NCBI GenBank assembly: GCA_041661425.1
Contig: JBAZUI010000001.1
Span: 8,507 to 72,506 of the forward strand
Source of the DNA: Patescibacteria group bacterium
GTDB lineage: Bacteria; Patescibacteriota; Patescibacteriia; UBA9934
Direction of reading: 5' to 3'
Length of the DNA: 64,000 nt
This document shows positions 3,350-60,487 of this stretch, piece after piece. Position numbers and translations under genes: made by a program. The notes under the pieces were generated by a model that saw nothing but the letters and a program-made list of their open reading frames with translations, made no database searches and was not told the origin of the DNA. How positions within the stretch are numbered: position 1 is the first letter of the stretch; each line of letters begins with the position of its first letter.

Positions 3350-3381
3350 CCCCTCCTTAAATAAGGAGGGGTGAGGGGTGG
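3350..3381. repeat. palindromic repeat, copy 1: CCCCTCCTTAAATAAGGAGGGG + TGAGGGGTGG
   Basis: 22-nt perfect palindrome with a G-rich tail. A near-identical copy occurs at 10478-10508. Confidence 0.7.
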
Positions 3382-3391
3382 TCTTGAATTC

Positions 3392-3763
3392 ATGAATATG
3401 AATTATCGATTGTTCAATCTGAGAGATCAGAAGAAATTTCGTTCTAAGCTTAGAAATGATTCAACGGACGCCGAACAGAAGTTGTGGAGTTTTCTCCGTC
3501 ATTCTCAAATCGATAAGTTAAAATTCCGTCGACAACAAGGAATTGGACCGTACATTGTGGATTTCTATTGTCCAAAGATCAAACTCGTCGTCGAGATTGA
3601 TGGCGATTCGCATTTTGATGATCAGGGCATCGCCTACGATAAACAACGAACAGTATTTCTGCAACAGTTTGGTATTCGGGTAGTCAGATTTACGAATGTT
3701 GATATTCAAGAAACCATTGAAGGTGTGATCGAAGAAATAAGAAAAAAAATAACGTTTCGCTAG
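3392..3763 (+). CDS. DUF559 (Vsr-like endonuclease domain) protein
   Basis: Motifs KLWSFLR...FRRQQGIGPYIVDFYCP...VEIDGDSH are characteristic of the DUF559 / restriction-endonuclease-like fold. The gene is inserted between dnaK and dnaJ. Confidence 0.75.
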   Translation: MNMNYRLFNLRDQKKFRSKLRNDSTDAEQKLWSFLRHSQIDKLKFRRQQGIGPYIVDFYCPKIKLVVEIDGDSHFDDQGIAYDKQRTVFLQQFGIRVVRFTNVDIQETIEGVIEEIRKKITFR

Positions 3764-3806
3764 AACCCCCTCAAACTCCCCCTTTGAAAGGGGGAGGCTA
3801 AAAAAT

Positions 3807-7922: not shown

Positions 7923-10433
7923 ATGACCGAAATCGATCGTCTTATCTATCTTGCTCTCGCCCTGCTAATTGGTTCGGGATTCCTTTTGGTTTTGATCTAT
8001 GGAATCCGGTCCTTTGTGCAGAATCGACCTCCTCTGCAAACCGGGAAGTGGAAGCACGTGACGCTCATGATCACGGTGCCAAAATTCGCAAACGAGGAAG
8101 AGACACGAAATGATGGCGGGATGCAGAAATTGCAAGAACGCATTGGGATTGCCGAAACATTCTATGCGGCCGTGGGAGGATTGTCCTCACAAAAGGGAAT
8201 CACAGCCTGGTTTTTTGGTCGACAGGATCATCTTGCGCTGGAGATGGTCGCCCATGAAAAATTAATCACGTTCTACCTCACGGTTCCGCAGTATCTTTTG
8301 GAATTCGTGGAGCAACAACTTCATGCACAGTATCCCGACGCCAGCGTTCAACCGGTTGAGGATTATAATATGTTTTGCCCAACCGGGACGATTCTTGGTG
8401 GGTATGTGGAGTTAAAACGTGAGATGATTCTTCCAATCAAGACGTATAAAGAATCAGAATCCGATCCATTGAATGCCATCACTAATGCGCTTTCCAAAGT
8501 CCCCGAGGGAGAGGGAATGGCTGTGCAATATATGATCCGACCGGCGAAGTCAAGCTGGCGTTCCATGGGTCAGAGGATTTCCACAAACATGCACAAAGGC
8601 ATGAGCTATCGTGAAGCCGTAAAAGGAAAAAAGGGTTCGGGAAGTGGATGGGCGGAGATGATTTGGAAGAAGAAAGAAACCGATCCGCAAAAAGTTCAGC
8701 AAGAGAACCAACCGCGACAAATGTCACAAGCGGAGCAGGAAATGCTCAAGCGTATTGAAAATAAAATCAGCAAAGCCGGCATGGAAGTGAACATCCGATT
8801 GATGGCTTCTTCGCAAAGTGCCGATGCCGCGCAGGCAAACCTGAATCAAATCCTTCAGGCTTTTGCGCAGTACAATATCTACGAATACGGAAATGCATTT
8901 GTTAAGGCCATTCCTTCGAATAAATCGAAACTCGTCCGTGATTTTATTTATCGTCGATTTTCCACAAAGCATCAATGTCTTTTTAATACCGAGGAGATGG
9001 CCAGTCTTTGGCATTTGCCGCTTCCCACCACGGAAACGCCGTCCATCCGTTGGATGCTTGCGCGCATTGCCCCGGCGCCGGCTGGCATGCCGACGGAGGG
9101 TTTGCACATGGGGTATAACGATTATCGCGGCAAGCGCACGGATATTTTTATTAAGGAAAAAGATCGTCAGCGCCACATGTATCTCATTGGAAAAACCGGA
9201 TCGGGAAAATCGTGGTTTTTGCGGTATATGGCCGTGCAGGATATTCGCGCAGGAAAAGGTGTTTGTGTGATCGATCCGCATGGCGATTTGGTAGATGATA
9301 TTTTGGGCACGATTCCAAAAGAACGAATTGATGATGTGGTCTATTTCTGCCCGGCCGACACCGAACGTCCCATGGGACTCAATATGCTCGAGGCGCCCAA
9401 TGAGAGCATGAAAGATTTTGCGGTTCAGGAAATGATTTCGATTTTTTACATGTTATTTCCGCCGGAAATGATTGGGCCAATGTTTGAGCACAACATGCGC
9501 AATTATATGTTGACGCTCATGGCCGACCAGCATGATCTGGGAACCATTGCGGAAATTCCACGCATGATTGCCGATGATGCGTTTCAAAAATCTTGGGTTG
9601 ATAAAGTCAAAGATCCGGTTGTCATGAGTTTCTGGAAAGATGAGATGGCGAAGACGTCCGATTATCATAAATCGGAAATGATGGGCTACCTTGTTTCGAA
9701 AGTCGGACGATTCGTGGAAAACGAAATGATGCGAAATATCATCGGGCAATCAAAATCCGCTTTTAATTTCCGCGAGATTATGGATTCCGGGAAGATTTTG
9801 CTCGTGAATCTTTCAAAAGGAAAAACAGGTGAGGTCAACGCGAATCTTTTGGGTCTCATCATTGTTGCAAAATTGCAGATGGCCGCATTCTCGCGCGCGG
9901 AGCTTCCCGAAGATCAGCGCCGCGATTTCTTTCTCTATATCGACGAGTTTCAAAATTTTATCACGCCTTCTATTGCAACGATTTTGTCTGAAGCTCGAAA
10001 ATATCGCCTTAATTTGATTCTTGCACACCAATACATGGGACAGCTCGTGAAAAACAACGATACGCAGATTCGTGATTCCATTCTTGGAAACGTTGGAAAT
10101 ATGTTTGTGGCGCGTATTGGTCCGGAAGATGCGGAGATTCTCTCGAAAATTTATGAGCCGACATTTTCCGGTTACGACTTGATGAATACAGACAATTTTA
10201 CATGGAATGCAAAAATTGTGGTTGACATGGCTCAGCTCAAGCCGTTTACCATGAAAGTGGCAACACCGGATAAGCCAAATCTCAAACTTGCCGAAGCGCT
10301 CAAGGAGATGTCACGTCTAAAATATGGTCGACCAAAGGCAATGGTCGAGCAAGAAATCGCCATGCGCGCGGGCATTGGCGCTGTGGCGGCTGGCACAGAA
10401 CGCACACCACCGCCCATTCCACCAACGATGTAA
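7923..10433 (+). CDS. membrane-anchored P-loop NTPase, TraD/TraG/VirD4 (T4SS coupling protein)-like / DUF87-like
   Basis: N-terminal TM helix. Walker A LIGKTGSGKS followed by VCVIDPHGDL, Walker B FFLYIDEFQNF, and LILAHQYMGQL. The size (836 aa) and motif spacing resemble coupling-protein/HerA-FtsK superfamily ATPases. Confidence 0.6.
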   Translation: MTEIDRLIYLALALLIGSGFLLVLIYGIRSFVQNRPPLQTGKWKHVTLMITVPKFANEEETRNDGGMQKLQERIGIAETFYAAVGGLSSQKGITAWFFGRQDHLALEMVAHEKLITFYLTVPQYLLEFVEQQLHAQYPDASVQPVEDYNMFCPTGTILGGYVELKREMILPIKTYKESESDPLNAITNALSKVPEGEGMAVQYMIRPAKSSWRSMGQRISTNMHKGMSYREAVKGKKGSGSGWAEMIWKKKETDPQKVQQENQPRQMSQAEQEMLKRIENKISKAGMEVNIRLMASSQSADAAQANLNQILQAFAQYNIYEYGNAFVKAIPSNKSKLVRDFIYRRFSTKHQCLFNTEEMASLWHLPLPTTETPSIRWMLARIAPAPAGMPTEGLHMGYNDYRGKRTDIFIKEKDRQRHMYLIGKTGSGKSWFLRYMAVQDIRAGKGVCVIDPHGDLVDDILGTIPKERIDDVVYFCPADTERPMGLNMLEAPNESMKDFAVQEMISIFYMLFPPEMIGPMFEHNMRNYMLTLMADQHDLGTIAEIPRMIADDAFQKSWVDKVKDPVVMSFWKDEMAKTSDYHKSEMMGYLVSKVGRFVENEMMRNIIGQSKSAFNFREIMDSGKILLVNLSKGKTGEVNANLLGLIIVAKLQMAAFSRAELPEDQRRDFFLYIDEFQNFITPSIATILSEARKYRLNLILAHQYMGQLVKNNDTQIRDSILGNVGNMFVARIGPEDAEILSKIYEPTFSGYDLMNTDNFTWNAKIVVDMAQLKPFTMKVATPDKPNLKLAEALKEMSRLKYGRPKAMVEQEIAMRAGIGAVAAGTERTPPPIPPTM

Positions 10434-10440
10434 GCGGTAG

Positions 10441-10472
10441 GGGCAGGTTACAGACTTGCCCTTTTGTTATTA
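10441..10472 (+). terminator. rho-independent terminator / REP-like hairpin GGGCAGGTTACAGACTTGCCC + TTTTGTTATTAT
   Basis: 8-bp stem (one G:U pair) with a T-run directly after the stop of 7923..10433. Closely related to the hairpin at 43023-43045. Confidence 0.6.
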
Positions 10473-10477
10473 TCGAA

Positions 10478-10508
10478 CCCCTCCTTTTTAAGGAGGGGTA
10501 AGGGGTGG
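10478..10508. repeat. palindromic repeat, copy 2: CCCCTCCTTTTTAAGGAGGGG + TAAGGGGTGG
   Basis: Matches the element at 3350-3381 except for the loop and one position. Confidence 0.7.
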
Positions 10509-10530
10509 TTGTGTGAAAAACTGGCGATCA

Positions 10531-10564
10531 AAAGCCCTCGGCCGAGACGACGGCTGAGGGCGAG
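10531..10564 (-). terminator. 34-bp hairpin repeat (copy 1) acting as terminator of minus-strand gene C1
   Basis: AAAGCCCTCGGCCGAGACGACGGCTGAGGGCGAG. On the minus strand it forms a hairpin followed by TTTTGATCGCC. An identical copy is at 11163-11196. Confidence 0.65.
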
Positions 10565-10586
10565 CAGTCTTGCGAAGCAAAGAAAA

Positions 10587-11045
10587 TCAGGGCGCAGCCG
10601 GCATCGAGTCGATGACAGCTGTGGGAGCTGGTGGCTCCGTCGAGAGGTCGATCTGCTCGAACCCTCCACGTGGATCGCTCGGAGGCATGGGGACTGATGG
10701 GATCCCGCCGTCCACGATGATCTGGTTGATCCTCTTGGCGTTTTCACACATCATGGGATCGCCCCCGGGCGCGCACGCCTCGACGACGTCCTGCCTCGAG
10801 CGCTCGTGCGTTCGAGCCTCGATCTTGTCGAGCTCCTCGGACTCGATCTTGTCGGGATGGGCGAGGAGCCATTCAATCCTCGCTTCGTCTTCCTCCTCCG
10901 TTGGAGTTCGCGATCCCTCGACGGCCGTGCTCATGGTTTGGAAGAGGAGGTATGACGAAACGCCTCCCACACAGATTCCTCCGGTTGCGAGACAGAGGAG
11001 GAGGATGATCACGATCAGCAGAACACTGTGTTTTCTCTTTTCCAT
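10587..11045 (-). CDS. GC-rich hypothetical membrane-anchored or secreted protein (153 aa)
   Basis: Start at MEKRK (ATG complement at 11043-11045), preceded by AGGAG. N-terminal basic stretch plus a TM helix (LLIVIILLLCLATGG), then a hydrophilic Pro/Glu-rich domain. G/C-rich codons. Confidence 0.5.
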   Translation of the reverse strand: MEKRKHSVLLIVIILLLCLATGGICVGGVSSYLLFQTMSTAVEGSRTPTEEEDEARIEWLLAHPDKIESEELDKIEARTHERSRQDVVEACAPGGDPMMCENAKRINQIIVDGGIPSVPMPPSDPRGGFEQIDLSTEPPAPTAVIDSMPAAP

Positions 11046-11091
11046 TGATGACGACTCCTGACCTGGGTTAGCTACCAGAGATGTACGTATG

Positions 11092-11120
11092 ATGTTAGAC
11101 AAGAAAAACAAATATGTCAA
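11092..11120 (-). promoter_or_regulatory. minus-strand promoter TTGACA-17-TAACAT for gene C1
   Basis: Read on the reverse complement: TTGACA at 11115-11120, TAACAT at 11092-11097, RBS AGGAG at 11055-11059. Confidence 0.5.
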
Positions 11121-11162
11121 TAGCTTTGTACAGACCTTGCCGATTAAGCCCTTAGAAACACG

Positions 11163-11196
11163 AAAGCCCTCGGCCGAGACGACGGCTGAGGGCGAG
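11163..11196 (-). terminator. 34-bp hairpin repeat (copy 2), terminator of minus-strand gene C2
   Basis: Identical to 10531-10564. On the minus strand it is followed by TTTCGTGTTTCT. Confidence 0.65.
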
Positions 11197-11209
11197 AAGA
11201 CGAAGTAGA

Positions 11210-11353
11210 CTACCTGGCCTGGAAGTACCAGGTATGCAGATTCCCCGGGCTCGGGGAGTTAATGAGGCCACGCGACTGCAACGTGGCCACGAGAATCAAG
11301 AGCGCCAAGGCCATGAAGATCATGACCCCAATCGTACGCGGATTATCCGCCAT
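11210..11353 (-). CDS. GC-rich hypothetical small membrane peptide (47 aa)
   Basis: Start at MADNP with GGAGG 5 nt upstream. One TM helix (IGVMIFMALALLILVA). The longer track ORF (71 aa) has no SD. Confidence 0.4.
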   Translation of the reverse strand: MADNPRTIGVMIFMALALLILVATLQSRGLINSPSPGNLHTWYFQAR

Positions 11354-11386
11354 CGGAGCCTCCATGGCTTTTAGTAGACGGCTATT

Positions 11387-11415
11387 AGTATGCTCCTTTT
11401 TGTCCTTTCTGTCAA
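11387..11415 (-). promoter_or_regulatory. minus-strand promoter TTGACA-17-CATACT for gene C2, divergent from the dnaX promoter region
   Basis: Reverse complement of 11410-11415 is TTGACA, and of 11387-11392 is CATACT. Confidence 0.4.
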
Positions 11416-11459
11416 CCATTTCCATTCACAGGTGGTCGTGCTAAAATGCGGCTACCTCT

Positions 11460-12998
11460 ATGGTACATGAAGCAATTTATCGGAAATATCGCCCGCAAGT
11501 TTTTGCGGATATTGTGGGGCAGTCTCACATTCGAACCACGCTTGAAAATCAACTCAAAACAAATCGCGTGGCTCATGCCTATCTCTTTTCTGGTCCGCGA
11601 GGAATCGGAAAAACAACCTGTGCGCGATTACTTGCGAAAGCCGTGAATTGCGAGCAACGCAAAGAAGGAAGCTCGGAACCGTGCAATGCATGTGAAGCGT
11701 GTCAAAACTTTTTGGCCGGGCGATCACTCGATATCGTGGAAATCGATGCGGCAACTCATACGGGCGTTGAGAATGTCCGCGATACGATTATCGATGCTGT
11801 CCGTTTTGCTCCGGCCGCAGGAAAATTCAAGGTCTTCATCATCGATGAAGTCCACATGCTTTCAACATCATCATTTAATGCGTTATTAAAAACGCTCGAG
11901 GAACCACCGGCCTATGCCATTTTTATTCTCGCGACCACGGAAATGCAGAAGATTCCTGAGACAATTCTTTCACGGTGCCAACGATTTGATTTTCGTCGCA
12001 TGAGTCCGCAGGAGATGCTTGATCGTTTACACACGATCCTTACAGCCGAAGATGTCGAAATTGAAGAAGAAGTGTTGCGAGCAATTATCCGTGCTTCCGA
12101 AGGAGCTTTGCGTGATGCAGAAAGTCTTTTAGGACAAGTGCTCGCTCTTGGGGAAAAGAAAATCACCAAGGAACTCGCTTCGCTTGTGATTCCGGTTGGA
12201 TCGATTGAAACAACTTCACACATCATTGCGGCTCTTGTGATGGGTGATGAAAAAGCGGCAATGGAAACACTGATCTCGTTTCAGAATCAGGGTGGAATGC
12301 CAACACTTTTGCTCGATGAGATGATTGAATACGTTCGCATGATTCTATTTGAGCGCATTGGTGCGCCGCATGACGATCGTTATCCCGATGTCATCATGCA
12401 AGAAATTCGCGCTTTAGCAAAAACATTTAATGAAGAACAATGTCTTTCTCTTTTGAATCTGCTTCTTGATGCAAAAGCTCGACCAGCAACTGATCCATTT
12501 CCTTCACTCCCGCTTGAGCTCGCCATGGTTCTTTTTTGTACGCAAAAACCTCGATCGATTCCGGTGCCGGTGGTCGTCACAGCGCCTCCATGTGTTGAGG
12601 GGGCGGATCTCCTTAAAACAATTCCCATTCAAAAGGGAATGCCAGAGAAGAAAGCAGAACCGGTTGTGACGCCGGAAAAGAAAGCGAGTTTTACACTTGA
12701 AGAGGTTCAGAACAAATGGGGACGTTGTTGCGAGGCGGTTGGCGCGCGAAATATCGCGCTTCCCATGGCGCTCAATGAAGCACGTCCGGAATCGTTTGAT
12801 GTAGATGGGCGATTGTGTATTCGATTCGATCGGGAGTTTCATTTTGAAACGCTTAATAAGCCTGGGAATCTGAAGATTCTTACTGAGGCCATTGCGGAGG
12901 TGATGCAATCGCCGGTGGTAGTGATGCCGATTTTTACAAAGAAACCCGAAGGAGAAGTGAACGATTTAGCTCAACAATTCGGCGGGGAAGTGATGTAA
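11460..12998 (+). CDS. dnaX: DNA polymerase III subunit gamma/tau
   Basis: N-terminal YRKYRPQVFADIVGQ, P-loop GPRGIGKTT, DEVHML, and the clamp-loader C-terminal domains. An extended -10 TGCTAAAAT lies 20 nt upstream. Confidence 0.93.
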   Translation: MVHEAIYRKYRPQVFADIVGQSHIRTTLENQLKTNRVAHAYLFSGPRGIGKTTCARLLAKAVNCEQRKEGSSEPCNACEACQNFLAGRSLDIVEIDAATHTGVENVRDTIIDAVRFAPAAGKFKVFIIDEVHMLSTSSFNALLKTLEEPPAYAIFILATTEMQKIPETILSRCQRFDFRRMSPQEMLDRLHTILTAEDVEIEEEVLRAIIRASEGALRDAESLLGQVLALGEKKITKELASLVIPVGSIETTSHIIAALVMGDEKAAMETLISFQNQGGMPTLLLDEMIEYVRMILFERIGAPHDDRYPDVIMQEIRALAKTFNEEQCLSLLNLLLDAKARPATDPFPSLPLELAMVLFCTQKPRSIPVPVVVTAPPCVEGADLLKTIPIQKGMPEKKAEPVVTPEKKASFTLEEVQNKWGRCCEAVGARNIALPMALNEARPESFDVDGRLCIRFDREFHFETLNKPGNLKILTEAIAEVMQSPVVVMPIFTKKPEGEVNDLAQQFGGEVM

Positions 12999-13015
12999 TT
13001 GTTTTAATAAAATAG

Positions 13016-13055
13016 TGATGACAGAAGTGGTCCGATCGGACCACTTCTGTCATCA
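13016..13055. promoter_or_regulatory. 40-bp perfect palindrome TGATGACAGAAGTGGTCCGA|TCGGACCACTTCTGTCATCA (terminator for dnaX and/or operator; centre GGTCCGATCGGACC)
   Basis: Perfect 20+20 inverted repeat read directly, 17 bp upstream of the TTGACA at 13072. Confidence 0.6.
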
Positions 13056-13071
13056 GGGCGGTAACCGCGCG

Positions 13072-13100
13072 TTGACAGGTGCGCCTTTTTGGCGTATTAT
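13072..13100 (+). promoter_or_regulatory. sigma70-like promoter TTGACA-17-TATTAT
   Basis: Canonical hexamers with a 17-nt spacer, followed by a ~100-nt 5'UTR carrying a second palindrome. Confidence 0.55.
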
Positions 13101-13139
13101 TTTCGGTCCTTTTCTAACGTTATCGATCGTTTCATAAAT

Positions 13140-13153
13140 GGTCCGGTCGGACC
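13140..13153. promoter_or_regulatory. operator-like perfect palindrome GGTCCGGTCGGACC in the 5'UTR
   Basis: 14-nt perfect palindrome; a sibling of the core at 13029-13042 and of 5460-5473. Confidence 0.5.
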
Positions 13154-13201
13154 TTTTGTGAAACGATCACGCTCTTTCGTATTCTCATCCTGGAGGTTCC
13201 C

Positions 13202-14197
13202 ATGCTGTTCATTCTCCTTGTGGCTTGCGCGTCGCAGGTTGAGCAGGACTTCATGACTCATGACGAGGTTCTGCCTGAGGAGGAGGTTGTTGCGGAAAAA
13301 GTTTCACCGGTCCTCGCGACGATTCGACCTGAGGATGCGGCGCTCGCGGAAGCGCGACTCCTTGCGCAGAACTGTGACAACGAAGCCTTTCGGAAGGTGA
13401 CGTATCCGGATGATCCGTCGTCAACGTTCTGTCACTACATCGCGTACGCTCACTTGAGCGATCTCGAGGGTGAGTTCGATGTCTCGCAAGACATCGTCAA
13501 CCTCATCGATGTGAACTTCGAGTACATCGGGTACGAGGTGTATTGGACGACAATCGCACGCGAGAATGCGGGTTTTGCTGAGAACACTAATGTGCGATAC
13601 GTCGGTGTTCTCGAGTGGCTCTACACGCAATGGCAGGAGAAACTTGTTCAAGCGGGCCTTAAGGGAGGGGTCCGTTATAACAATCCCGCGCTCCTTCGCT
13701 CCTACCCTGCGGTTGTCACGAAATGCGAGGGCGACACGAGCTGGGGATGGACGGTTACGACTCTCAGCTACGTCGTGAGCGTGCTTCGCGGTCACCCGGG
13801 CGAGCATCACCTCTTGGACGAGAAGCTCGCCGCTGATGAGAAGATGTGGATGCGACGTGCGGCTGACACCTACCACATTGGCTGTATCGGTGACCGGGAC
13901 GAACGGAATTACGCGGAAGCGTACTTCTATTATTCCGAGGTCGGCGAAATGCCAATGGCTCGCAGGATCGCTCGCATGCAAGCCGAAGCCGGGCTTGCTC
14001 AATTGACGGGTCGAACGCCGTCATGCAACCGAGAATCCTGGTGTTCCTGGCGCCAAGGAGATCTCACCACATACATCATGTGGATGGAGAATGCGGGCAT
14101 GACGAAAGAGGAGCAATGGCTCGAGCTCAAAAAACTCGAAGCCAAACACCCGCCGCCCGAAGTCCTCGATCTCATCCGCTCTCACGAGCCGTCGTGA
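13202..14197 (+). CDS. GC-rich hypothetical lipoprotein (331 aa)
   Basis: GGAGG RBS. N-terminal MLFILLVAC is a lipobox-like signal peptide. G/C-ending codons throughout, no recognisable family. The antisense ORFs here are artefacts of GC richness. Confidence 0.55.
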   Translation: MLFILLVACASQVEQDFMTHDEVLPEEEVVAEKVSPVLATIRPEDAALAEARLLAQNCDNEAFRKVTYPDDPSSTFCHYIAYAHLSDLEGEFDVSQDIVNLIDVNFEYIGYEVYWTTIARENAGFAENTNVRYVGVLEWLYTQWQEKLVQAGLKGGVRYNNPALLRSYPAVVTKCEGDTSWGWTVTTLSYVVSVLRGHPGEHHLLDEKLAADEKMWMRRAADTYHIGCIGDRDERNYAEAYFYYSEVGEMPMARRIARMQAEAGLAQLTGRTPSCNRESWCSWRQGDLTTYIMWMENAGMTKEEQWLELKKLEAKHPPPEVLDLIRSHEPS

Positions 14198-14210
14198 CTC
14201 TGCCCTTCGT

Positions 14211-14249
14211 GGCCGTTCCTGCACCTGCGGGGACGGCCGCTGTATTTTA
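14211..14249 (+). terminator. rho-independent terminator (GGCCGTTCC...GGGACGGCC + TGTATTTTAT)
   Basis: GC stem followed by a T-rich run after the stop of 13202..14197. Confidence 0.5.
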
Positions 14250-14260
14250 TACAAAAAACT

Positions 14261-14306
14261 ATGAATTGATATTCATGGTTTTTTTGTGGTTCCCGGACAG
14301 GGATTC
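14261..14306. repeat. direct repeat duplicating the 3' end of tRNA-Gln plus flank (gatattcatggtt...tggttcccggacagggattc)
   Basis: A 20-nt exact match to 14461-14480, with matching flank gatatt(t)catggtt. This is an att-like duplication of the tRNA 3' end. Confidence 0.6.
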
Positions 14307-14460
14307 CTCCTCATCCGTCGTTCGCGTGTTCCCTCGGAACAGGCTCACTCCTCCTTCAGAGCCGGGGTCGTCCAAAACGTAAAGTAGTTTACGTTTTGTC
14401 CGTACCCTTCGAATCCCTGTCGTAAATAAAATATCGCCAGCCGAAGCTGTCGATATTTCA

Positions 14461-14534
14461 TGGTTCCCGGACAGGGATTCGAACCCCGATTCCCAGGACC
14501 AAAACCTGGTGTCCTGCCCTTAGACGATCCGGGA
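14461..14534 (-). tRNA. tRNA-Gln (anticodon TTG)
   Basis: Reverse complement folds by hand into a cloverleaf: acceptor TCCCGGA/TCCGGGA, D-stem GTCT/GGAC, anticodon stem CCAGG/CCTGG with loop TTTTGGT, T-arm CGGGG-TTCGAAT-CCCTG, CCA encoded; 74 nt. Confidence 0.8.
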
Positions 14535-39373: not shown

Positions 39374-41164
39374 ATGATCAGCGCTGATGAATTGAGAAAA
39401 AAGTACCTTGATTTTTTTGTTTCAAAGGGACATATCCAAATTCCTTCCGCTTCCTTGATTCCCGAGAATGATCCTTCGGTGTTGTTCACGACCGCTGGGA
39501 TGCATCCGTTGGTTCCGTATCTTTTAGGTGAGCCTCATCCCGCTGGCAAGCGTTTGGTAAATGTGCAGAAGTGTGTGCGCACCGGTGATATTGATGAAGT
39601 GGGTGATGCGACGCACTTGACCTTTTTTGAAATGCTCGGGAATTGGTCGCTTGGGGATTATTTCAAGGATGATTCGATTGCCTGGAGTTTTGAGTTTTTA
39701 ACATCCGCAGATTGGCTTGCGATCCCTGTCAATAAACTCGCGGTCAGTGTTTTTGCTGGCGATGACGATGCGCCATTCGATGAAGAGTCCATGAAAAAAT
39801 GGATGGAGCTCGGTATCCTCGAATCTCGCATTGCAAAGCTTGGGAAAGATGATAATTGGTGGCCGGCAGGCGGCAAACATCCAGGGCCTCAAGGGCCGGA
39901 TACGGAGATTTTTTATTGGACCGGAACAGAGGTGGCGCCGGAATCGTTTGACCCGAAAAATAAATTTTGGGTCGAAATTTGGAACAACGTCTTCATGCAG
40001 TTTTTAAAAGGAAAAGATGGTTCCCCTAAATCGCTCGATCAAAAGAATGTGGATACCGGGATGGGCCTTGAGCGCACACTCGCGGTTTTGAATGACGTCG
40101 CAACGGTATTTGAAACTGATCTTTTTATTTCGATTATTTCCGCCATTGAATCGGCAACCGGAGCGAAATACGGGAGCGATGCGGCTGTGACTCGATCAAT
40201 GAGGATCATTGCCGATCATGTTCGTTCAGCGGTCATGATGATCGCGGACGGCGTTGCGCCTTCGAATAAGGATCAGGGGTACATCCTTCGACGTCTGATT
40301 CGTCGGGCGATTTGTGAATCAACAAAGCTCGTAAAAGAGGGGATTGATCTTACAAAAATCGCTCATCCCGTGATTGCGATGTTTGAAGGTGTCTATCCAA
40401 TTCCCACGGCCGGGAATGTCATCAAGGCCATAAAAGATGAACAAGAAAAGTTTTCAAAGACCCTTCACAAGGGGCTGGGACAATTTGAAAAATTTTTCAA
40501 ACAAGGCGCCATTGGTGGAAAAGAAGCATTTGATTTGTATGCAACCTATGGATTTCCACTGGAGCTTACTGAGGACCTCGTGAAAGAACGCGGAGCAACC
40601 ATCGATCGCGAGGCGTTCGAACACGAGTTTGCGCATCACCAGGAGCTCTCCTCGCAAGGGTCGGAAAAGAAATTTAAAGGCGGTCTGGCAGATGCGAGCG
40701 AGGAAACAACACGATTGCATACAGCCACGCATTTGCTTCATCAGGCTCTCCGGATGGTGCTCGGGGATGGGGTGGCGCAAAAAGGATCGAATATTACGAC
40801 TGAACGTTTGCGTTTTGATTTTTCTCATGGCGAAAAGATGACACCGGAACAGATTACCGAGGTCGAACGTATCGTGAACGAACAAATCGAAAAAGCCATG
40901 CCGGTTATTTGCGAGACGATGTCGGTCGAGGAGGCGGAAAAATCCGGGGCCATTGGACTCTTCAAAGAAAAATATAAAACCGTTGGCGACCAGGTAAAGG
41001 TCTACAACGTCGGAAATTCTTCGACAAGCTCAGAGCCTCCTTTCAGTCGGGAAATCTGCGGCGGTCCTCATGCCTCGAATACGAAGGAGCTTGGACACTT
41101 TAAGATTTTGAAGGAAGAGGCGTCGTCCGCCGGGATTCGACGGATTAAGGCTATTTTAGAATAA
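39374..41164 (+). CDS. alaS: alanine--tRNA ligase (short form, 596 aa)
   Basis: AlaRS catalytic core motifs (FTTAGM, KCVRTGDID, FFEMLGNWS) and the HxxxH editing/second domain. C-terminal portions typical of full-length AlaRS are absent. Confidence 0.85.
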   Translation: MISADELRKKYLDFFVSKGHIQIPSASLIPENDPSVLFTTAGMHPLVPYLLGEPHPAGKRLVNVQKCVRTGDIDEVGDATHLTFFEMLGNWSLGDYFKDDSIAWSFEFLTSADWLAIPVNKLAVSVFAGDDDAPFDEESMKKWMELGILESRIAKLGKDDNWWPAGGKHPGPQGPDTEIFYWTGTEVAPESFDPKNKFWVEIWNNVFMQFLKGKDGSPKSLDQKNVDTGMGLERTLAVLNDVATVFETDLFISIISAIESATGAKYGSDAAVTRSMRIIADHVRSAVMMIADGVAPSNKDQGYILRRLIRRAICESTKLVKEGIDLTKIAHPVIAMFEGVYPIPTAGNVIKAIKDEQEKFSKTLHKGLGQFEKFFKQGAIGGKEAFDLYATYGFPLELTEDLVKERGATIDREAFEHEFAHHQELSSQGSEKKFKGGLADASEETTRLHTATHLLHQALRMVLGDGVAQKGSNITTERLRFDFSHGEKMTPEQITEVERIVNEQIEKAMPVICETMSVEEAEKSGAIGLFKEKYKTVGDQVKVYNVGNSSTSSEPPFSREICGGPHASNTKELGHFKILKEEASSAGIRRIKAILE

Positions 41165-41165
41165 T

Positions 41166-41188
41166 GGGGTCAGGTCGGGAATCGGGAA
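41166..41188. repeat. 23-bp direct repeat GGGGTCAGGTCGGGAATCGGGAA (left copy) flanking the HigBA cassette
   Basis: Exact 23-nt match to 41833-41855; lies directly after the alaS stop codon. Confidence 0.75.
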
Positions 41189-41213
41189 TTTTTTTCGGCT
41201 GAACTAGCTTTTT

Positions 41214-41531
41214 ATGAAAATTAAATTCTTTAGTCGAGAGATCGAGGAGTTTATTATAAGACTGGAAAAGCCAACGATCGCAAAGGTCTTACGGAGCTTT
41301 GATCTACTCGAAAAATTTGGTAATCAAATCGGCATGCCTCATAGTAAGGCATTGAGTGATGGGCTGTTCGAATTGAGAATTCGCGGAGTTCAGGAAGTGA
41401 GATTCTTATACTTTTTTAAAAAGACAGAAATGATTGTGATTTTGAGCGGTTTTTTAAAAAAGACAAATTCGATGCCGGTTCGGGAAATGCGGTTGGCAAA
41501 GCAACGGAAAAAAGAGCTTGACGCGATATAA
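41214..41531 (+). CDS. higB: HigB/RelE-superfamily toxin (Gp49-like)
   Basis: LFELRIRGVQEVRFLYFF...IVILSGFLKKT matches the Gp49/HigB-like toxin family. Followed by an XRE antitoxin. Confidence 0.75.
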   Translation: MKIKFFSREIEEFIIRLEKPTIAKVLRSFDLLEKFGNQIGMPHSKALSDGLFELRIRGVQEVRFLYFFKKTEMIVILSGFLKKTNSMPVREMRLAKQRKKELDAI

Positions 41532-41545
41532 CATATACGTTATAT

Positions 41546-41827
41546 TTGATGTGTATGAAAGATTATCAAATTTTGAAAAAAGAATTATTGTCCGATACCG
41601 AAATTCGAAAGGCTTACGAGGCATTGGGACCGGAATATTCGATTATTGAGAAGTTAATCGAGAAACGATTAAAACAGGGGATGTCACAAAAGCAATTAGC
41701 AAAAATTCTCGGCACAAAACAGTCTGCCATTTCTCGCTTTGAATCCGGTTCTTACAATCCCACCATTTCATTTCTTTATAAAATCGCCGATGCGCTCGAT
41801 GTAAAATTGACGATGACGGTTAAATAA
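41546..41827 (+). CDS. higA: HTH XRE-family antitoxin (HigA-like)
   Basis: HTH motif GMSQKQLAKILGTKQSAISRFESG. Confidence 0.8.
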   Translation: MMCMKDYQILKKELLSDTEIRKAYEALGPEYSIIEKLIEKRLKQGMSQKQLAKILGTKQSAISRFESGSYNPTISFLYKIADALDVKLTMTVK

Positions 41828-41832
41828 AAAAC

Positions 41833-41855
41833 GGGGTCAGGTCGGGAATCGGGAA
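41833..41855. repeat. 23-bp direct repeat GGGGTCAGGTCGGGAATCGGGAA (right copy)
   Basis: Identical to 41166-41188. Confidence 0.75.
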
Positions 41856-60145: not shown

Positions 60146-60164
60146 TATTTTTGGTGGACCTTAA
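60146..60164. repeat. direct repeat duplicating the 3' end of tRNA-Ala (tggtggaccttaagggatt)
   Basis: 19-20 nt exact match to 60339-60357; a structured GC-rich ~175-bp segment lies between the copies. Confidence 0.6.
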
Positions 60165-60338
60165 GGGATTTGGCTTCGGCTCTCGTGTCGCCGTCGCTCC
60201 ACTCGGCCTAGCCACCGCCTCGCCATTCCGCCTGCTGGCGGAATAGGGCTCCGGCGTTCGAATCCCCCCGCAAGCCAAATTATTGGCTTGCTCGAAATAC
60301 CAACCCACAAGACTCCAAATTTTTGAAACGCTGTGGGT

Positions 60339-60414
60339 TGGTGGACCTTAAGGGATTCGAACCCTTGACCTCTTCCATGCCATGGAAGCGCTCTAGCCAA
60401 CTGAGCTAAAGGCC
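60339..60414 (-). tRNA. tRNA-Ala (anticodon GGC)
   Basis: Reverse complement GGGCCTT-TA-GCTC-AGTTGGCTA-GAGC-G-CTTCC-ATGGCAT-GGAAG-AGGTC-AAGGG-TTCGAAT-CCCTT-AAGGTCC-A-CCA folds into a canonical cloverleaf. Confidence 0.8.
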
Positions 60415-60487
60415 CTTACCGCGAAAGAATAATAGTAAAAAACGTTCTTTTTGTAAAGAAGGGCATCTTGAGATAAAATAGAGACCT

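What the first reader, a model, noticed from the sequence alone, without database searches (positions are those of the whole stretch)
10440..11450. Two minus-strand peptide cassettes using an identical 34-bp hairpin terminator
The sequence AAAGCCCTCGGCCGAGACGACGGCTGAGGGCGAG occurs twice, at 10531-10564 and 11163-11196. Each copy lies immediately 3' (minus strand) of a GC-rich gene, C1 (153 aa, TM-anchored) and C2 (47 aa, TM). Each of those genes has its own TTGACA promoter. The whole ~1 kb block is in opposite orientation to all its neighbours, and C2's promoter is back-to-back with the dnaX promoter. Repeated identical parts of this kind point to recent duplication or a modular mobile unit.
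Basis: seen in the sequence. Interest (0 to 1): 0.7.

Follow-up and report, generated by a model that had tools for sequence, protein, structure and literature searches.

The report
Two orphan membrane-protein genes sharing one terminator
Two small, self-contained genes for membrane proteins found nowhere else sit backwards between two core genes of a Patescibacteria genome, and the identical 34-base hairpin after each is most likely a copied transcription terminator; this is a tidy but fairly ordinary case of add-on genes.

Summary
The 34-mer occurs exactly twice in the 64 kb window (10531-10564, 11163-11196) and extends to 36/37. Each copy lies 16-25 nt after the stop codon of a minus-strand ORF. 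Each ORF has its own TTGACA-17-nt promoter match and a Shine-Dalgarno site.

The source is a Patescibacteria MAG (C1 = WC730_00095, C2 = WC730_00100). The two units share only the hairpin. Promoters, leaders and ORFs are unrelated, so whole-cassette duplication is refuted.

C1 (152 aa: TM helix, three-helix domain, disordered tail) has no homologue among 1.84 billion representative proteins. C2 (47 aa, one TM) also has none. Both ORFs have GC3 of 0.73-0.81, against 0.33-0.61 for the other ORFs measured, bar one other orphan (0.67).

In four related lineages the flanking genes, a DUF8128/TrwB-type ATPase gene and dnaX, are adjacent and co-oriented. In two other lineages the same slot holds unrelated minus-strand units with the same promoter-ORF-terminator design.

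The hairpin was not found in GTDB species genomes, JGI metagenome contigs or IMG/VR, apart from chance hits in high-GC organisms.

My reading: these are moron-like autonomous add-on genes. The repeat is their intrinsic terminator and brackets the C1 unit as a direct repeat, from a recent local insertion, duplication or gene conversion. Protein function is unknown. Interest is modest.

The parts
10439..10473 (+). Intrinsic terminator of the upstream DUF8128/TrwB-type ATPase gene (7923-10433): hairpin 10439-10463 followed by TTGTTATTAT.
   Evidence: Terminator scan. The position and the GGTAGGGGCAG...TGCCC(G)TTTTGTT sequence are conserved in relative L010.
10477..10509 (.). Solitary hairpin ACCCCTCCTT-TTT-AAGGAGGGGT followed by AAGGGGTGGT. 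It resembles the hairpin that precedes a DUF559 gene at 3350-3382 and is probably a relic of an earlier insertion in the same slot.
   Evidence: Inverted repeat I10. 88% identity over 33 nt to 3350-3382. Sequence at 3350-3382. DUF559 assignment. Fold.
10531..10567 (-). Repeat copy 1, the presumed Rho-independent terminator of C1. The stem-loop is 10534-10561 and the U-tract lies at 10533-10526 on the minus strand.
10587..11045 (-). C1 ORF, 152 aa (NCBI MFA6130655.1, WC730_00095). It has an N-terminal TM helix, a three-helix domain with two Cys, and a Pro-rich disordered tail. An AGGAG Shine-Dalgarno site lies at 11059-11055, 9 nt before the ATG. It is an orphan.
   Evidence: ORF and translation. 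GC1/2/3 of 0.62/0.46/0.73. No homologue found. No family match. AF2 mean pLDDT 71.5. Accession.
11092..11120 (-). C1 promoter match: TTGACA, 17-nt spacer, TAACAT.
   Evidence: Promoter scan, 10 of 12 positions.
11163..11199 (-). Repeat copy 2, the presumed Rho-independent terminator of C2. The stem-loop is 11166-11193.
   Evidence: The independent Logan contig L008 starts exactly at this repeat.
11210..11353 (-). C2 ORF, 47 aa with a single TM helix. A GGAGG site at 11363-11359 lies 5 nt before the ATG. NCBI annotates a 51-aa form starting at 11365 (MFA6130656.1, WC730_00100).
   Evidence: GC3 of 0.81. The only family match is a sub-threshold one to DUF7503.
11387..11415 (-). C2 promoter match: TTGACA, 17-nt spacer, CATACT.
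   Evidence: Promoter scan, 10 of 12 positions.
11419..11447 (+). dnaX promoter match: TTTCCA, 17-nt spacer with TG, TAAAAT. It is divergent from and abuts the C2 promoter. dnaX is 11460-12998.

Best explanation
C1 and C2 are two independent monocistronic transcription units. Each has a sigma-70-type promoter, a Shine-Dalgarno site, an ORF for a lineage-restricted membrane-anchored protein, and a Rho-independent terminator.

The units lie head-on in a slot between two core genes, a DUF8128/TrwB-type ATPase gene and dnaX. Those two genes are adjacent and co-oriented in four related lineages. In design and context the units behave like phage 'morons': autonomous add-on genes of foreign base composition. 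Here, however, they sit in a housekeeping region of a Patescibacteria chromosome.

The repeated 34-mer (37 nt with one mismatch) is the terminator hairpin of each unit. It stops C2 transcripts before the C1 promoter, and it stops C1 transcripts before they run antisense into the convergent ATPase gene.

The hairpin is the only sequence the units share, and it brackets the 598-bp promoter-plus-C1 segment as a perfect direct repeat. The likeliest history is therefore one recent local event that placed a second copy of a resident terminator beside the C1 unit. That event could have been insertion with duplication of the target, or Campbell-type recombination at the hairpin.

Shown: the anatomy, the restriction of identity to the hairpin, the orphan status, the atypical GC3 and the variable occupancy of the slot.
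Inferred: that transcription starts and stops where predicted, that the proteins are made, and how the repeat arose.

What the proteins do is unknown. My best guess is envelope-associated accessory proteins.
For: Anatomy:
- Promoter matches.
- ORFs and Shine-Dalgarno sites.
- Hairpins with U-rich tails 16-25 nt after the stop codons.

What is shared: only 34/37 nt. C1 and C2 are not similar to each other.

Signs that both ORFs are coding:
- GC3 > GC1 > GC2 in C1; in C2 GC3 is likewise the highest of the three.
- The AF2 model has a TM helix plus three helices, with block-mean pLDDT of 76-92 over residues 51-110.

Foreign or atypical composition: GC3 is 0.73 and 0.81, against 0.33-0.61 for the 50 other window ORFs measured, excluding the orphan at 13202-14197 (0.67).

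Orphan status.

State of the slot in relatives:
- The ATPase gene and dnaX are 28 bp apart in L020/L021.
- They are 68 bp apart in L012.
- They are 229 bp apart with no credible ORF in L013.
- L010/L011 (dnaX 67% identical) hold two 41-aa minus-strand TM peptides. Each has a TTGAC(A/T) box, a Shine-Dalgarno site and a mismatch-containing G+C-rich hairpin with a U tail. The terminators of the two units resemble each other (16 of 19 nt) and GC3 is 0.67-0.79.
- L016 holds a single unrelated 168-aa minus-strand ORF, which reads as G+C-rich by eye, with its own promoter and terminator.

Not a dispersed repeat.

Insertions bracketed by duplicated target sequence occur in this genome and clade:
- A Gp49/HTH toxin-antitoxin cassette lies between 29-nt repeats.
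- L021 equals L020 plus 2.1 kb bracketed by a 294-bp duplication.

The moron definition is taken from PMC3594210.
Against: - There are no expression data, so promoter and terminator activity rest on consensus matches only. The U-tracts are short and interrupted, and the stem has an A.C mismatch on the transcribed strand. On the opposite strand it would be a perfect stem with a G.U pair.
- No genome with an empty or single-unit site close enough to show the insertion event was found. The nearest relative has dnaX only 67% identical.
- The relative L010 also has two units, so a two-unit layout may be old. In that case the perfect identity of the terminators would need gene conversion rather than a recent insertion.
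- C2 and the L010 peptides share the high GC3. That weakens 'recent foreign origin' as the sole cause of the composition.
- Only 64 kb of the genome could be searched for further copies.
Confidence: 0.55

Rival explanations
1. Gene conversion between two old terminators. The two-unit layout is ancestral, as in L010, and arose by an old tandem duplication of a small-peptide unit. The ORFs then diverged or were replaced, and the two terminators were recently homogenised by a short conversion tract.
For: - L010/L011 have the same two-unit layout in the same slot, and their two terminators share 16 of 19 nt (3' arm plus tail).
- The high GC3 is shared by the peptides of both lineages.
Against: - No significant similarity links any unit of the window to any unit of L010, at DNA level or protein level. 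The shuffle test is confounded by TM composition.
- The identity stops sharply at the hairpin plus or minus 3-6 nt and includes the loop.
- Lineages closer than L016 have an empty slot, which argues for repeated independent insertions.
Confidence: 0.22
2. Recent tandem duplication of a whole peptide cassette. C1 and C2 would be paralogues.
For: Both are minus-strand, both begin with a short polar stretch followed by a TM helix, and both are followed by the identical hairpin.
Against: - No DNA similarity exists outside the 37 nt.
- BLASTP finds nothing between C1 and C2.
- The lengths are 152 and 47 aa, and the promoters and leaders are unrelated.
- A duplication recent enough to leave 34 of 34 identity would leave the ORFs near-identical too.
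Confidence: 0.04
3. The 34-mer is one member of a dispersed family, such as a REP/BIME-like palindrome, a MITE end or a generic genome-wide terminator. It would then have no specific link to these genes.
For: It is a G+C-rich imperfect palindrome in an extragenic position. Only about 64 kb of the genome could be examined.
Against: - There are two copies only in the window, even with 3 mismatches allowed.
- The survey of 90 nt downstream of 57 ORFs showed this hairpin only behind C1 and C2.
- Exact-stem searches with a free loop found only unrelated single hits in high-GC organisms in GTDB species genomes and JGI metagenome contigs, and nothing in IMG/VR.
Confidence: 0.07
4. Integron-like gene cassettes. 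Each ORF would be followed by an attC-type recombination hairpin and inserted by a site-specific recombinase acting on folded single-stranded DNA.
For: The layout is a same-orientation tandem ORF-plus-imperfect-palindrome array, with identical palindromes like those of chromosomal cassette arrays. The ORFs are orphans of atypical composition.
Against: - The hairpin is 28-34 nt, whereas attC sites are about 57-141 nt by established knowledge.
- No RYYYAAC or GTTRRRY boxes are present (sequence).
- Each unit carries its own promoter.
- No integrase or other recombinase domain was found in the ORFs scanned between 54 and 27556.
- There are only two units.
Confidence: 0.02
5. This rival concerns function. 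C2, and the 41-aa peptides of L010, would be type I toxin-antitoxin toxins: small hydrophobic peptides kept in check by an antisense RNA. The structured 3' end would then be part of the mRNA's regulation.
For: - The peptides are 41-47 aa with a single TM helix.
- Each has its own promoter and terminator, in an intergenic position.
- They occur as tandem, lineage-specific and fast-evolving copies.
Against: - The scan found no + strand promoter match overlapping C2; the only + strand match nearby is the dnaX promoter.
- No Rfam hit.
- No match to any toxin family in Pfam, NCBIfam or PADLOC.
- C1 (152 aa with a folded ectodomain) does not fit.
Confidence: 0.1

Closest known systems
Rho-independent (intrinsic) transcription terminators
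   Same: A G+C-rich stem-loop (dG about -19 kcal/mol) lies 16-25 nt after a stop codon and is followed by a U-rich stretch, on the coding strand of both ORFs.
   Different: - The U-tracts are short and interrupted (UUUUGAUC, UUUCGUGU).
- The stem has an internal A.C mismatch on the transcribed strand.
- Two neighbouring, otherwise unrelated genes use the same sequence base for base, which is unusual.
- Activity was not tested.
Phage 'morons' (autonomous add-on transcription units, e.g. HK97 gene 15; PMC3594210)
   Same: - Each unit has its own promoter and terminator.
- Base composition differs from that of the surrounding genes.
- The units sit between genes that are adjacent in relatives.
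- The products are small membrane proteins and orphans.
   Different: The units are not in a prophage. The flanks are chaperone genes, cysS, dnaX, mnmA and lepA, in conserved synteny across Patescibacteria. No phage relatives were found.
Integron gene cassettes with attC sites
   Same: Tandem, co-oriented orphan ORFs, each followed by the same imperfect palindrome.
   Different: The hairpin is too short, it lacks the R and L box consensus, the units have their own promoters, and no integrase lies nearby.
Type I toxin-antitoxin loci (small hydrophobic toxins such as Hok, Ldr, Ibs, TisB)
   Same: Peptides of about 40-50 aa with a single TM helix, in tandem, lineage-specific, monocistronic units in intergenic DNA.
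   Different: No antisense RNA gene or promoter was detected and there is no family match. The partner unit C1 encodes a 152-aa protein.
Insertion with flanking duplication of the target (Campbell-type or insertion-duplication events)
   Same: A segment of atypical composition is bracketed by a perfect short direct repeat. There are parallels in the same window (toxin-antitoxin cassette, 29-nt repeat) and in the clade (L021, 294-bp repeat).
   Different: The repeat here is a terminator hairpin of only 34-37 nt. No empty-site allele or circular form was seen.

Membership tests
Rho-independent terminator | A stable G+C-rich stem-loop on the transcribed strand, shortly downstream of a stop codon. 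| tested here: met
   dG is -19.3 kcal/mol, with a 6+4 bp stem and a 6-nt loop, 25 nt after the C1 stop and 16 nt after the C2 stop.
Rho-independent terminator | A U-tract immediately 3' of the stem. | tested here: inconclusive
   The tails are UUUUGAUC and UUUCGUGU (5 of 8 U each). The consensus scanner did not call them, because the inner stem has only 4 pairs before the mismatch.
Rho-independent terminator | Transcripts actually end there. | not testable with these tools
   This needs 3'-end mapping or Term-seq.
Moron-like autonomous unit | Own promoter and own terminator around a single ORF. | tested here: met
   TTGACA-17-TAACAT and TTGACA-17-CATACT promoter matches plus a hairpin for each ORF.
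Moron-like autonomous unit | Base composition differs from that of the neighbours. | tested here: met
   GC3 is 0.73 and 0.81, against 0.33-0.61 for the other ORFs measured, excluding the orphan at 13202-14197.
Moron-like autonomous unit | Absent from related genomes at the same position ('more DNA'). | tested here: met
   The ATPase gene and dnaX abut in L020/L021, L012 and L013.
Moron-like autonomous unit | Resides in a phage or prophage genome. | tested here: not met
   The context is housekeeping genes in conserved synteny. There are no PHROG hits and no phage matches.
Integron cassette / attC | An attC site of about 57-141 nt with R''/L''/L'/R' boxes (RYYYAAC ... GTTRRRY). | tested here: not met
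   The palindrome is 28-34 nt and neither box is present (sequence).
Integron cassette / attC | An IntI integrase and attI adjacent to the array. | tested here: not met
   No recombinase domain was found in the ORFs scanned between 54 and 27556.
Dispersed extragenic palindrome (REP/MITE-like) | Many copies scattered over the genome. | tested here: inconclusive
   There are only 2 copies in 64 kb at up to 3 mismatches and none in public collections. The rest of the genome is not available.
Type I toxin-antitoxin | A small hydrophobic toxin ORF. | tested here: met
   C2 is 47 aa with one TM helix. C1 does not fit (152 aa).
Type I toxin-antitoxin | A cis- or trans-encoded antisense RNA antitoxin. 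| tested here: not met
   The only + strand promoter match near C2 is that of dnaX, and there is no Rfam hit. Absence of a consensus match is weak evidence.

The most novel reading that the evidence does not exclude
The hairpin may be more than a terminator. It may be the joint of a recombinase-less, small-cassette insertion process in Patescibacteria.

In this reading, promoter-ORF segments of foreign composition are inserted into short chromosomal sequences that end up duplicated on both sides. The sequence is a terminator palindrome here. Elsewhere in the same window the equivalents would be a 29-nt sequence around a toxin-antitoxin cassette and 20-25 nt of tRNA 3' ends. In a related strain pair it would be 294 bp of mnmA.

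Such a process could follow DNA uptake in these naturally competent, recombination-poor episymbionts. It would explain how orphan membrane-protein genes keep appearing between core genes.
Probability: 0.12. Interest if true: 0.6.

Novelty: new member of a known kind. Interest (0 to 1): 0.27.

Why it matters
Patescibacteria have small, streamlined genomes. How they gain new envelope proteins is relevant to their episymbiotic lifestyle. This locus shows that a junction between two core genes is repeatedly occupied, in different lineages, by unrelated ready-to-express orphan genes. It also shows that a terminator can be reused verbatim when a new unit is added. This is a modest, descriptive point. 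It would gain weight only if the repeat-bracketed insertions turn out to share one mechanism, or if the orphan proteins prove to act at the host-symbiont interface.

Tried and rejected
- **Homologues of C1.** The word-indexed search of 5.8 billion proteins returned only C1 itself. Full phmmer over 1.84 billion representatives returned C1 itself plus a TM-only hit, P0122. tblastn against phages and plasmids, IMG/VR and PDB sequences found nothing. Foldseek against the PDB with the AF2 model gave only noise, E above 4. The afdb50 library was not available.
- **Family scans.** C1 has no match in Pfam, PHROGs or PADLOC, and only a weak sub-threshold FliL match in NCBIfam (E 0.039, 13.6 bits against a cut-off of 187). 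C2 has no match in PHROGs, NCBIfam or PADLOC and only a sub-threshold match to DUF7503 in Pfam (17.6 bits against a cut-off of 27).
- **C2-family profile search.** It returned only the query sequences themselves. The 396-aa 'cluster mate' P0127 is an unrelated dehydrogenase-like protein and a clustering artefact.
- **Rfam.** Both the gathering and the permissive runs found nothing in the block.
- **Hairpin pattern with a free loop.** The seven hits in genome contigs and the one hit in metagenome contigs are single hairpins in high-GC organisms with different loops and unrelated flanks. One Planctomycetota hit is 27 of 28 identical, but it is in the opposite orientation relative to its T-run and has no flank similarity. 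I judged it to be chance.
- **Looking for the source contig or strain variants by exact protein.** Only a 1.9-kb Logan contig carrying dnaX was returned. It starts at the repeat, as expected if a k=31 assembly graph breaks at a 34-nt repeat. C1, C2 and the ATPase are not on record.
- **An apparent presence/absence difference between L016 and L017.** It turned out to be contig truncation.
- **Shuffle test of peptide similarity.** The low p values for C2-A' and A'-C1N are explained by aligning TM blocks, so I did not accept them as evidence of homology.
- **RAPP-type arrest peptide idea for C1.** I rejected it: the C-terminus is PAAP, no downstream gene is co-transcribed, and a terminator follows directly.
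Full report
**1. The observation**

The 34-mer AAAGCCCTCGGCCGAGACGACGGCTGAGGGCGAG is present at 10531-10564 and 11163-11196. With up to three mismatches allowed, no other copy exists on either strand of the window, and none was expected by chance. The repeat extends to 37 nt with one mismatch, at a spacing of 632 bp. It is the longest exact direct repeat in the 64 kb.

On the minus strand it folds into a 6+4 bp G+C-rich stem with one A.C mismatch and a 6-nt loop (-19.3 kcal/mol). The tails are UUUUGAUC and UUUCGUGU. The hairpins start 25 nt after the C1 stop and 16 nt after the C2 stop. On the + strand the mismatch becomes a G.U pair, but no U-tract follows.

C1 is 10587-11045(-) and encodes 152 aa. 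C2 is 11210-11353(-) and encodes 47 aa. Both have good Shine-Dalgarno sites: AGGAG 9 nt before the C1 start and GGAGG 5 nt before the C2 start.

The two best promoter matches in 9500-12500 are minus-strand TTGACA-17-TAACAT (11120-11092) and TTGACA-17-CATACT (11415-11387). The second abuts the divergent dnaX promoter match at 11419-11447. C1 and C2 are the only minus-strand genes in a + strand run from 54 to 29011.

**2. Source and context**

C1 is NCBI MFA6130655.1 (WC730_00095) and C2 is MFA6130656.1 (WC730_00100). Both come from a Patescibacteria-group MAG, on a contig of 118,031 bp.

The gene upstream (7923-10433) is a TrwB/TraG-type P-loop ATPase. In relatives its orthologue also carries DUF8128. 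The gene downstream is dnaX. The wider neighbourhood is hrcA, grpE, dnaK, dnaJ, cysS, the ATPase gene, dnaX, mnmA, lepA, recJ and pilM. This order is syntenic with relatives. None of the ORFs scanned between 54 and 27556 carries a recombinase domain.

**3. What the two units share**

They share only the hairpin. A word-size-7 BLASTN of the 1-kb block against itself finds nothing but the 34-mer. The promoters, leaders and ORFs are unrelated. BLASTP of C1 against C2 finds nothing. A whole-cassette duplication recent enough to leave 34 of 34 identity is therefore excluded. The repeat is a direct repeat bracketing the 598-bp segment that holds the C1 promoter and ORF.

**4. Are the ORFs real, and what are they?**

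C1 shows the coding pattern GC3 > GC1 > GC2 (0.73, 0.62, 0.46).

A single-sequence AF2 model has a mean pLDDT of 71.5. It contains:
- a TM helix at residues 4-42;
- three helices between residues 50 and 112, with block-mean pLDDT of 76-92 over residues 51-110;
- a disordered Pro-rich tail.

C1 has no homologue in 5.8 billion clustered proteins. Full phmmer against 1.84 billion representatives also finds none; the only other hit covers just the TM segment. Nothing turned up in phage or plasmid records, IMG/VR or PDB sequences. Foldseek against the PDB gives only noise.

C2 has one TM helix. Its only family match is a sub-threshold one to DUF7503, and a profile search recovered only its own query sequences.

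Both ORFs are strong GC3 outliers. Their values are 0.73 and 0.81, against 0.33-0.61 for the 50 other ORFs measured in the window, excluding the orphan at 13202-14197 (0.67).

**5. The slot in relatives**

I fetched dnaX loci of six related lineages. One of them (L014) lacks the ATPase gene upstream of dnaX and was left out. The other five are:

| Lineage | State of the slot |
|---|---|
| L020/L021 | ATPase gene and dnaX 28 bp apart, co-oriented |
| L012 | 68 bp apart |
| L013 | 229 bp apart, no credible ORF |
| L010/L011 (nearest relative, dnaX 67% identical) | Two 41-aa minus-strand single-TM peptides |
| L016 | One unrelated 168-aa minus-strand ORF with a TTGACTTGACA promoter and a strong terminator |

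In L010/L011 each peptide gene has a TTGAC(A/T) box, a Shine-Dalgarno site and a G+C-rich hairpin with one mismatch and a U-rich tail. The two terminators share 16 of 19 nt, and GC3 is 0.67-0.79.

No unit in one lineage is detectably similar to a unit in another. The suggestive shuffle p values reflect aligned TM blocks.

The compact ATPase-dnaX junction is therefore probably ancestral. It has been occupied repeatedly, or its content replaced, by ready-to-express minus-strand units.

**6. Is the hairpin a dispersed element?**

I searched the stem exactly, with a free loop.
- GTDB species genomes gave seven single hits. All are in high-GC organisms with other loops and unrelated flanks. One Planctomycetota hairpin is 27 of 28 identical, but it is oppositely oriented to its T-run and unrelated outside the hairpin.
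- JGI metagenome contigs gave one unrelated hit.
- IMG/VR gave none.

An independent Logan contig from SRR18595301 carries the identical dnaX and C2. It begins exactly at the repeat, as expected when a k=31 assembly graph breaks at a 34-nt repeat. This also argues against a misassembly. The rest of the source genome could not be read, so 'genome-wide terminator' is not supported but is not fully excluded.

**7. Interpretation**

The units match the operational definition of morons: own promoter, own terminator, deviant base composition, and absence from related genomes at that position (PMC3594210). They are not in a prophage, so I describe them as moron-like rather than file them as morons.

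The repeat is best read as the intrinsic terminator of both units. Its perfect identity, confined to the palindrome plus 3-6 nt, points to a recent local event. The first candidate is insertion of the C1 promoter-ORF segment with duplication of the resident terminator. The second is Campbell-type recombination at the hairpin. The third is a short gene-conversion tract between two older terminators.

Insertions bracketed by duplicated target sequence do occur in this genome and clade:
- A Gp49-like toxin plus HTH antitoxin cassette lies between 29-nt repeats at 41160-41188 and 41827-41855. Those repeats are not hairpins.
- L021 differs from L020 by 2.1 kb, carrying three minus-strand orphan ORFs, bracketed by a 294-bp duplication of the mnmA 5' end.

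I cannot distinguish insertion from conversion without closer relatives.

**8. Rejected or weak alternatives**

- Integron cassettes. The hairpin is too short, it lacks the attC boxes, the units have their own promoters, and no integrase is present.
- A REP/MITE family. There are only two copies.
- A type I toxin role for C2. The peptide features fit, but no antisense promoter or RNA was found and C1 does not fit.
- A RAPP-type arrest peptide role for C1. There is no such motif and no downstream gene.

**9. Verdict**

The finding is real. What is there is a pair of orphan membrane-protein add-on genes sharing one copied terminator, in a recurrently occupied slot between core genes. It is a new example of a known kind of arrangement. 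Interest is modest (0.27). The more novel reading, a common recombinase-less cassette-insertion process in Patescibacteria, is not excluded but is weakly supported (about 0.12).

Noticed in passing
window 41160-41855: A Gp49/HigB-like toxin gene (41214-41531) and an HTH_3 antitoxin gene (41555-41827) form a 638-bp A+T-rich cassette (GC 0.37). It lies directly after the stop of a 596-aa ORF that reads like an alanyl-tRNA synthetase (by eye, not scanned). It is bracketed by a 29-nt direct repeat (AAWAAYGGGGTCAGGTCGGGAATCGGGAA, 93% identical, spacing 667). The repeat is not a hairpin.
   Followed up: partly
window 12999-14534: A G+C-rich orphan ORF at 13202-14197 (331 aa, GC3 0.67, no family or PDB match, WC730_00110) has its own TTGACA-17-TATTAT promoter at about 13073 and a strong terminator at about 14209-14240. 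It lies between dnaX and mnmA, and no counterpart gene was called there in relative L010 (by gene size and domain list). It is bounded on the left by a perfect 40-nt palindrome (13016-13055). On the right it is bounded by a 25-nt copy (14282-14306, 92%) of the 3' end of tRNA-Gln (14461-14534, -).
   Followed up: partly
window 60151-60415: The 3' 20 nt of tRNA-Ala (60339-60415, -) is repeated exactly 187 bp away, at 60151-60170. The 167-bp segment between the copies is G+C-rich (0.59) and contains a T-loop-like GTTCGAATCC. It looks like an integration scar or a tRNA-fragment relic.
   Followed up: no
window 3350-3800: A DUF559 (Vsr-like endonuclease fold) gene at 3392-3763 is flanked by CCCCTCC...GGAGGGG-type hairpins (3350-3382, 3767-3797). 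It sits between the small ORF after dnaK and dnaJ, where relative L010 has only an 89-bp spacer. A solitary copy of the left hairpin plus its AAGGGGTGGT tail lies at 10477-10509, next to the C1 terminator.
   Followed up: partly
L021 5699-8400 versus L020: Two contigs encode identical dnaX proteins and are 99.95-100% identical over the aligned DNA, yet differ by a 2,114-bp insert. The insert carries three minus-strand ORFs without Pfam hits and is bracketed by a 294-bp duplication of the mnmA 5' end. This is a strain-level insertion with target duplication in a related Patescibacteria lineage.
   Followed up: partly
L016 1075-1581 (also L015, and the JGI 481-kb contig): In a lineage with dnaX 48% identical, the same ATPase-dnaX slot holds one minus-strand 168-aa ORF that reads as G+C-rich by eye (not measured). 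It has no Pfam or PADLOC hit, a TTGACTTGACA promoter, a strong terminator and an adjacent CTCCCCCTTGGGAAGGGGGAG hairpin.
   Followed up: partly
L007 7201-7228 (Planctomycetota MAG): A hairpin is 27 of 28 nt identical to the window's terminator stem-loop, including 5 of 6 loop bases, but its T-run is on the opposite side and its flanks are unrelated. It is probably coincidence among G+C-rich terminators.
   Followed up: partly
window 7923-10433 and orthologues in L010, L013, L020: An ATPase of about 840 aa, of TrwB/TraG type IV coupling-protein kind and carrying DUF8128 in relatives, is conserved in synteny (cysS, a ~170-aa ORF, the ATPase gene, dnaX) across diverged Patescibacteria. This suggests a core cellular role rather than a role in conjugation. 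Its best PADLOC hit is mad8 (E 8e-17).
   Followed up: no
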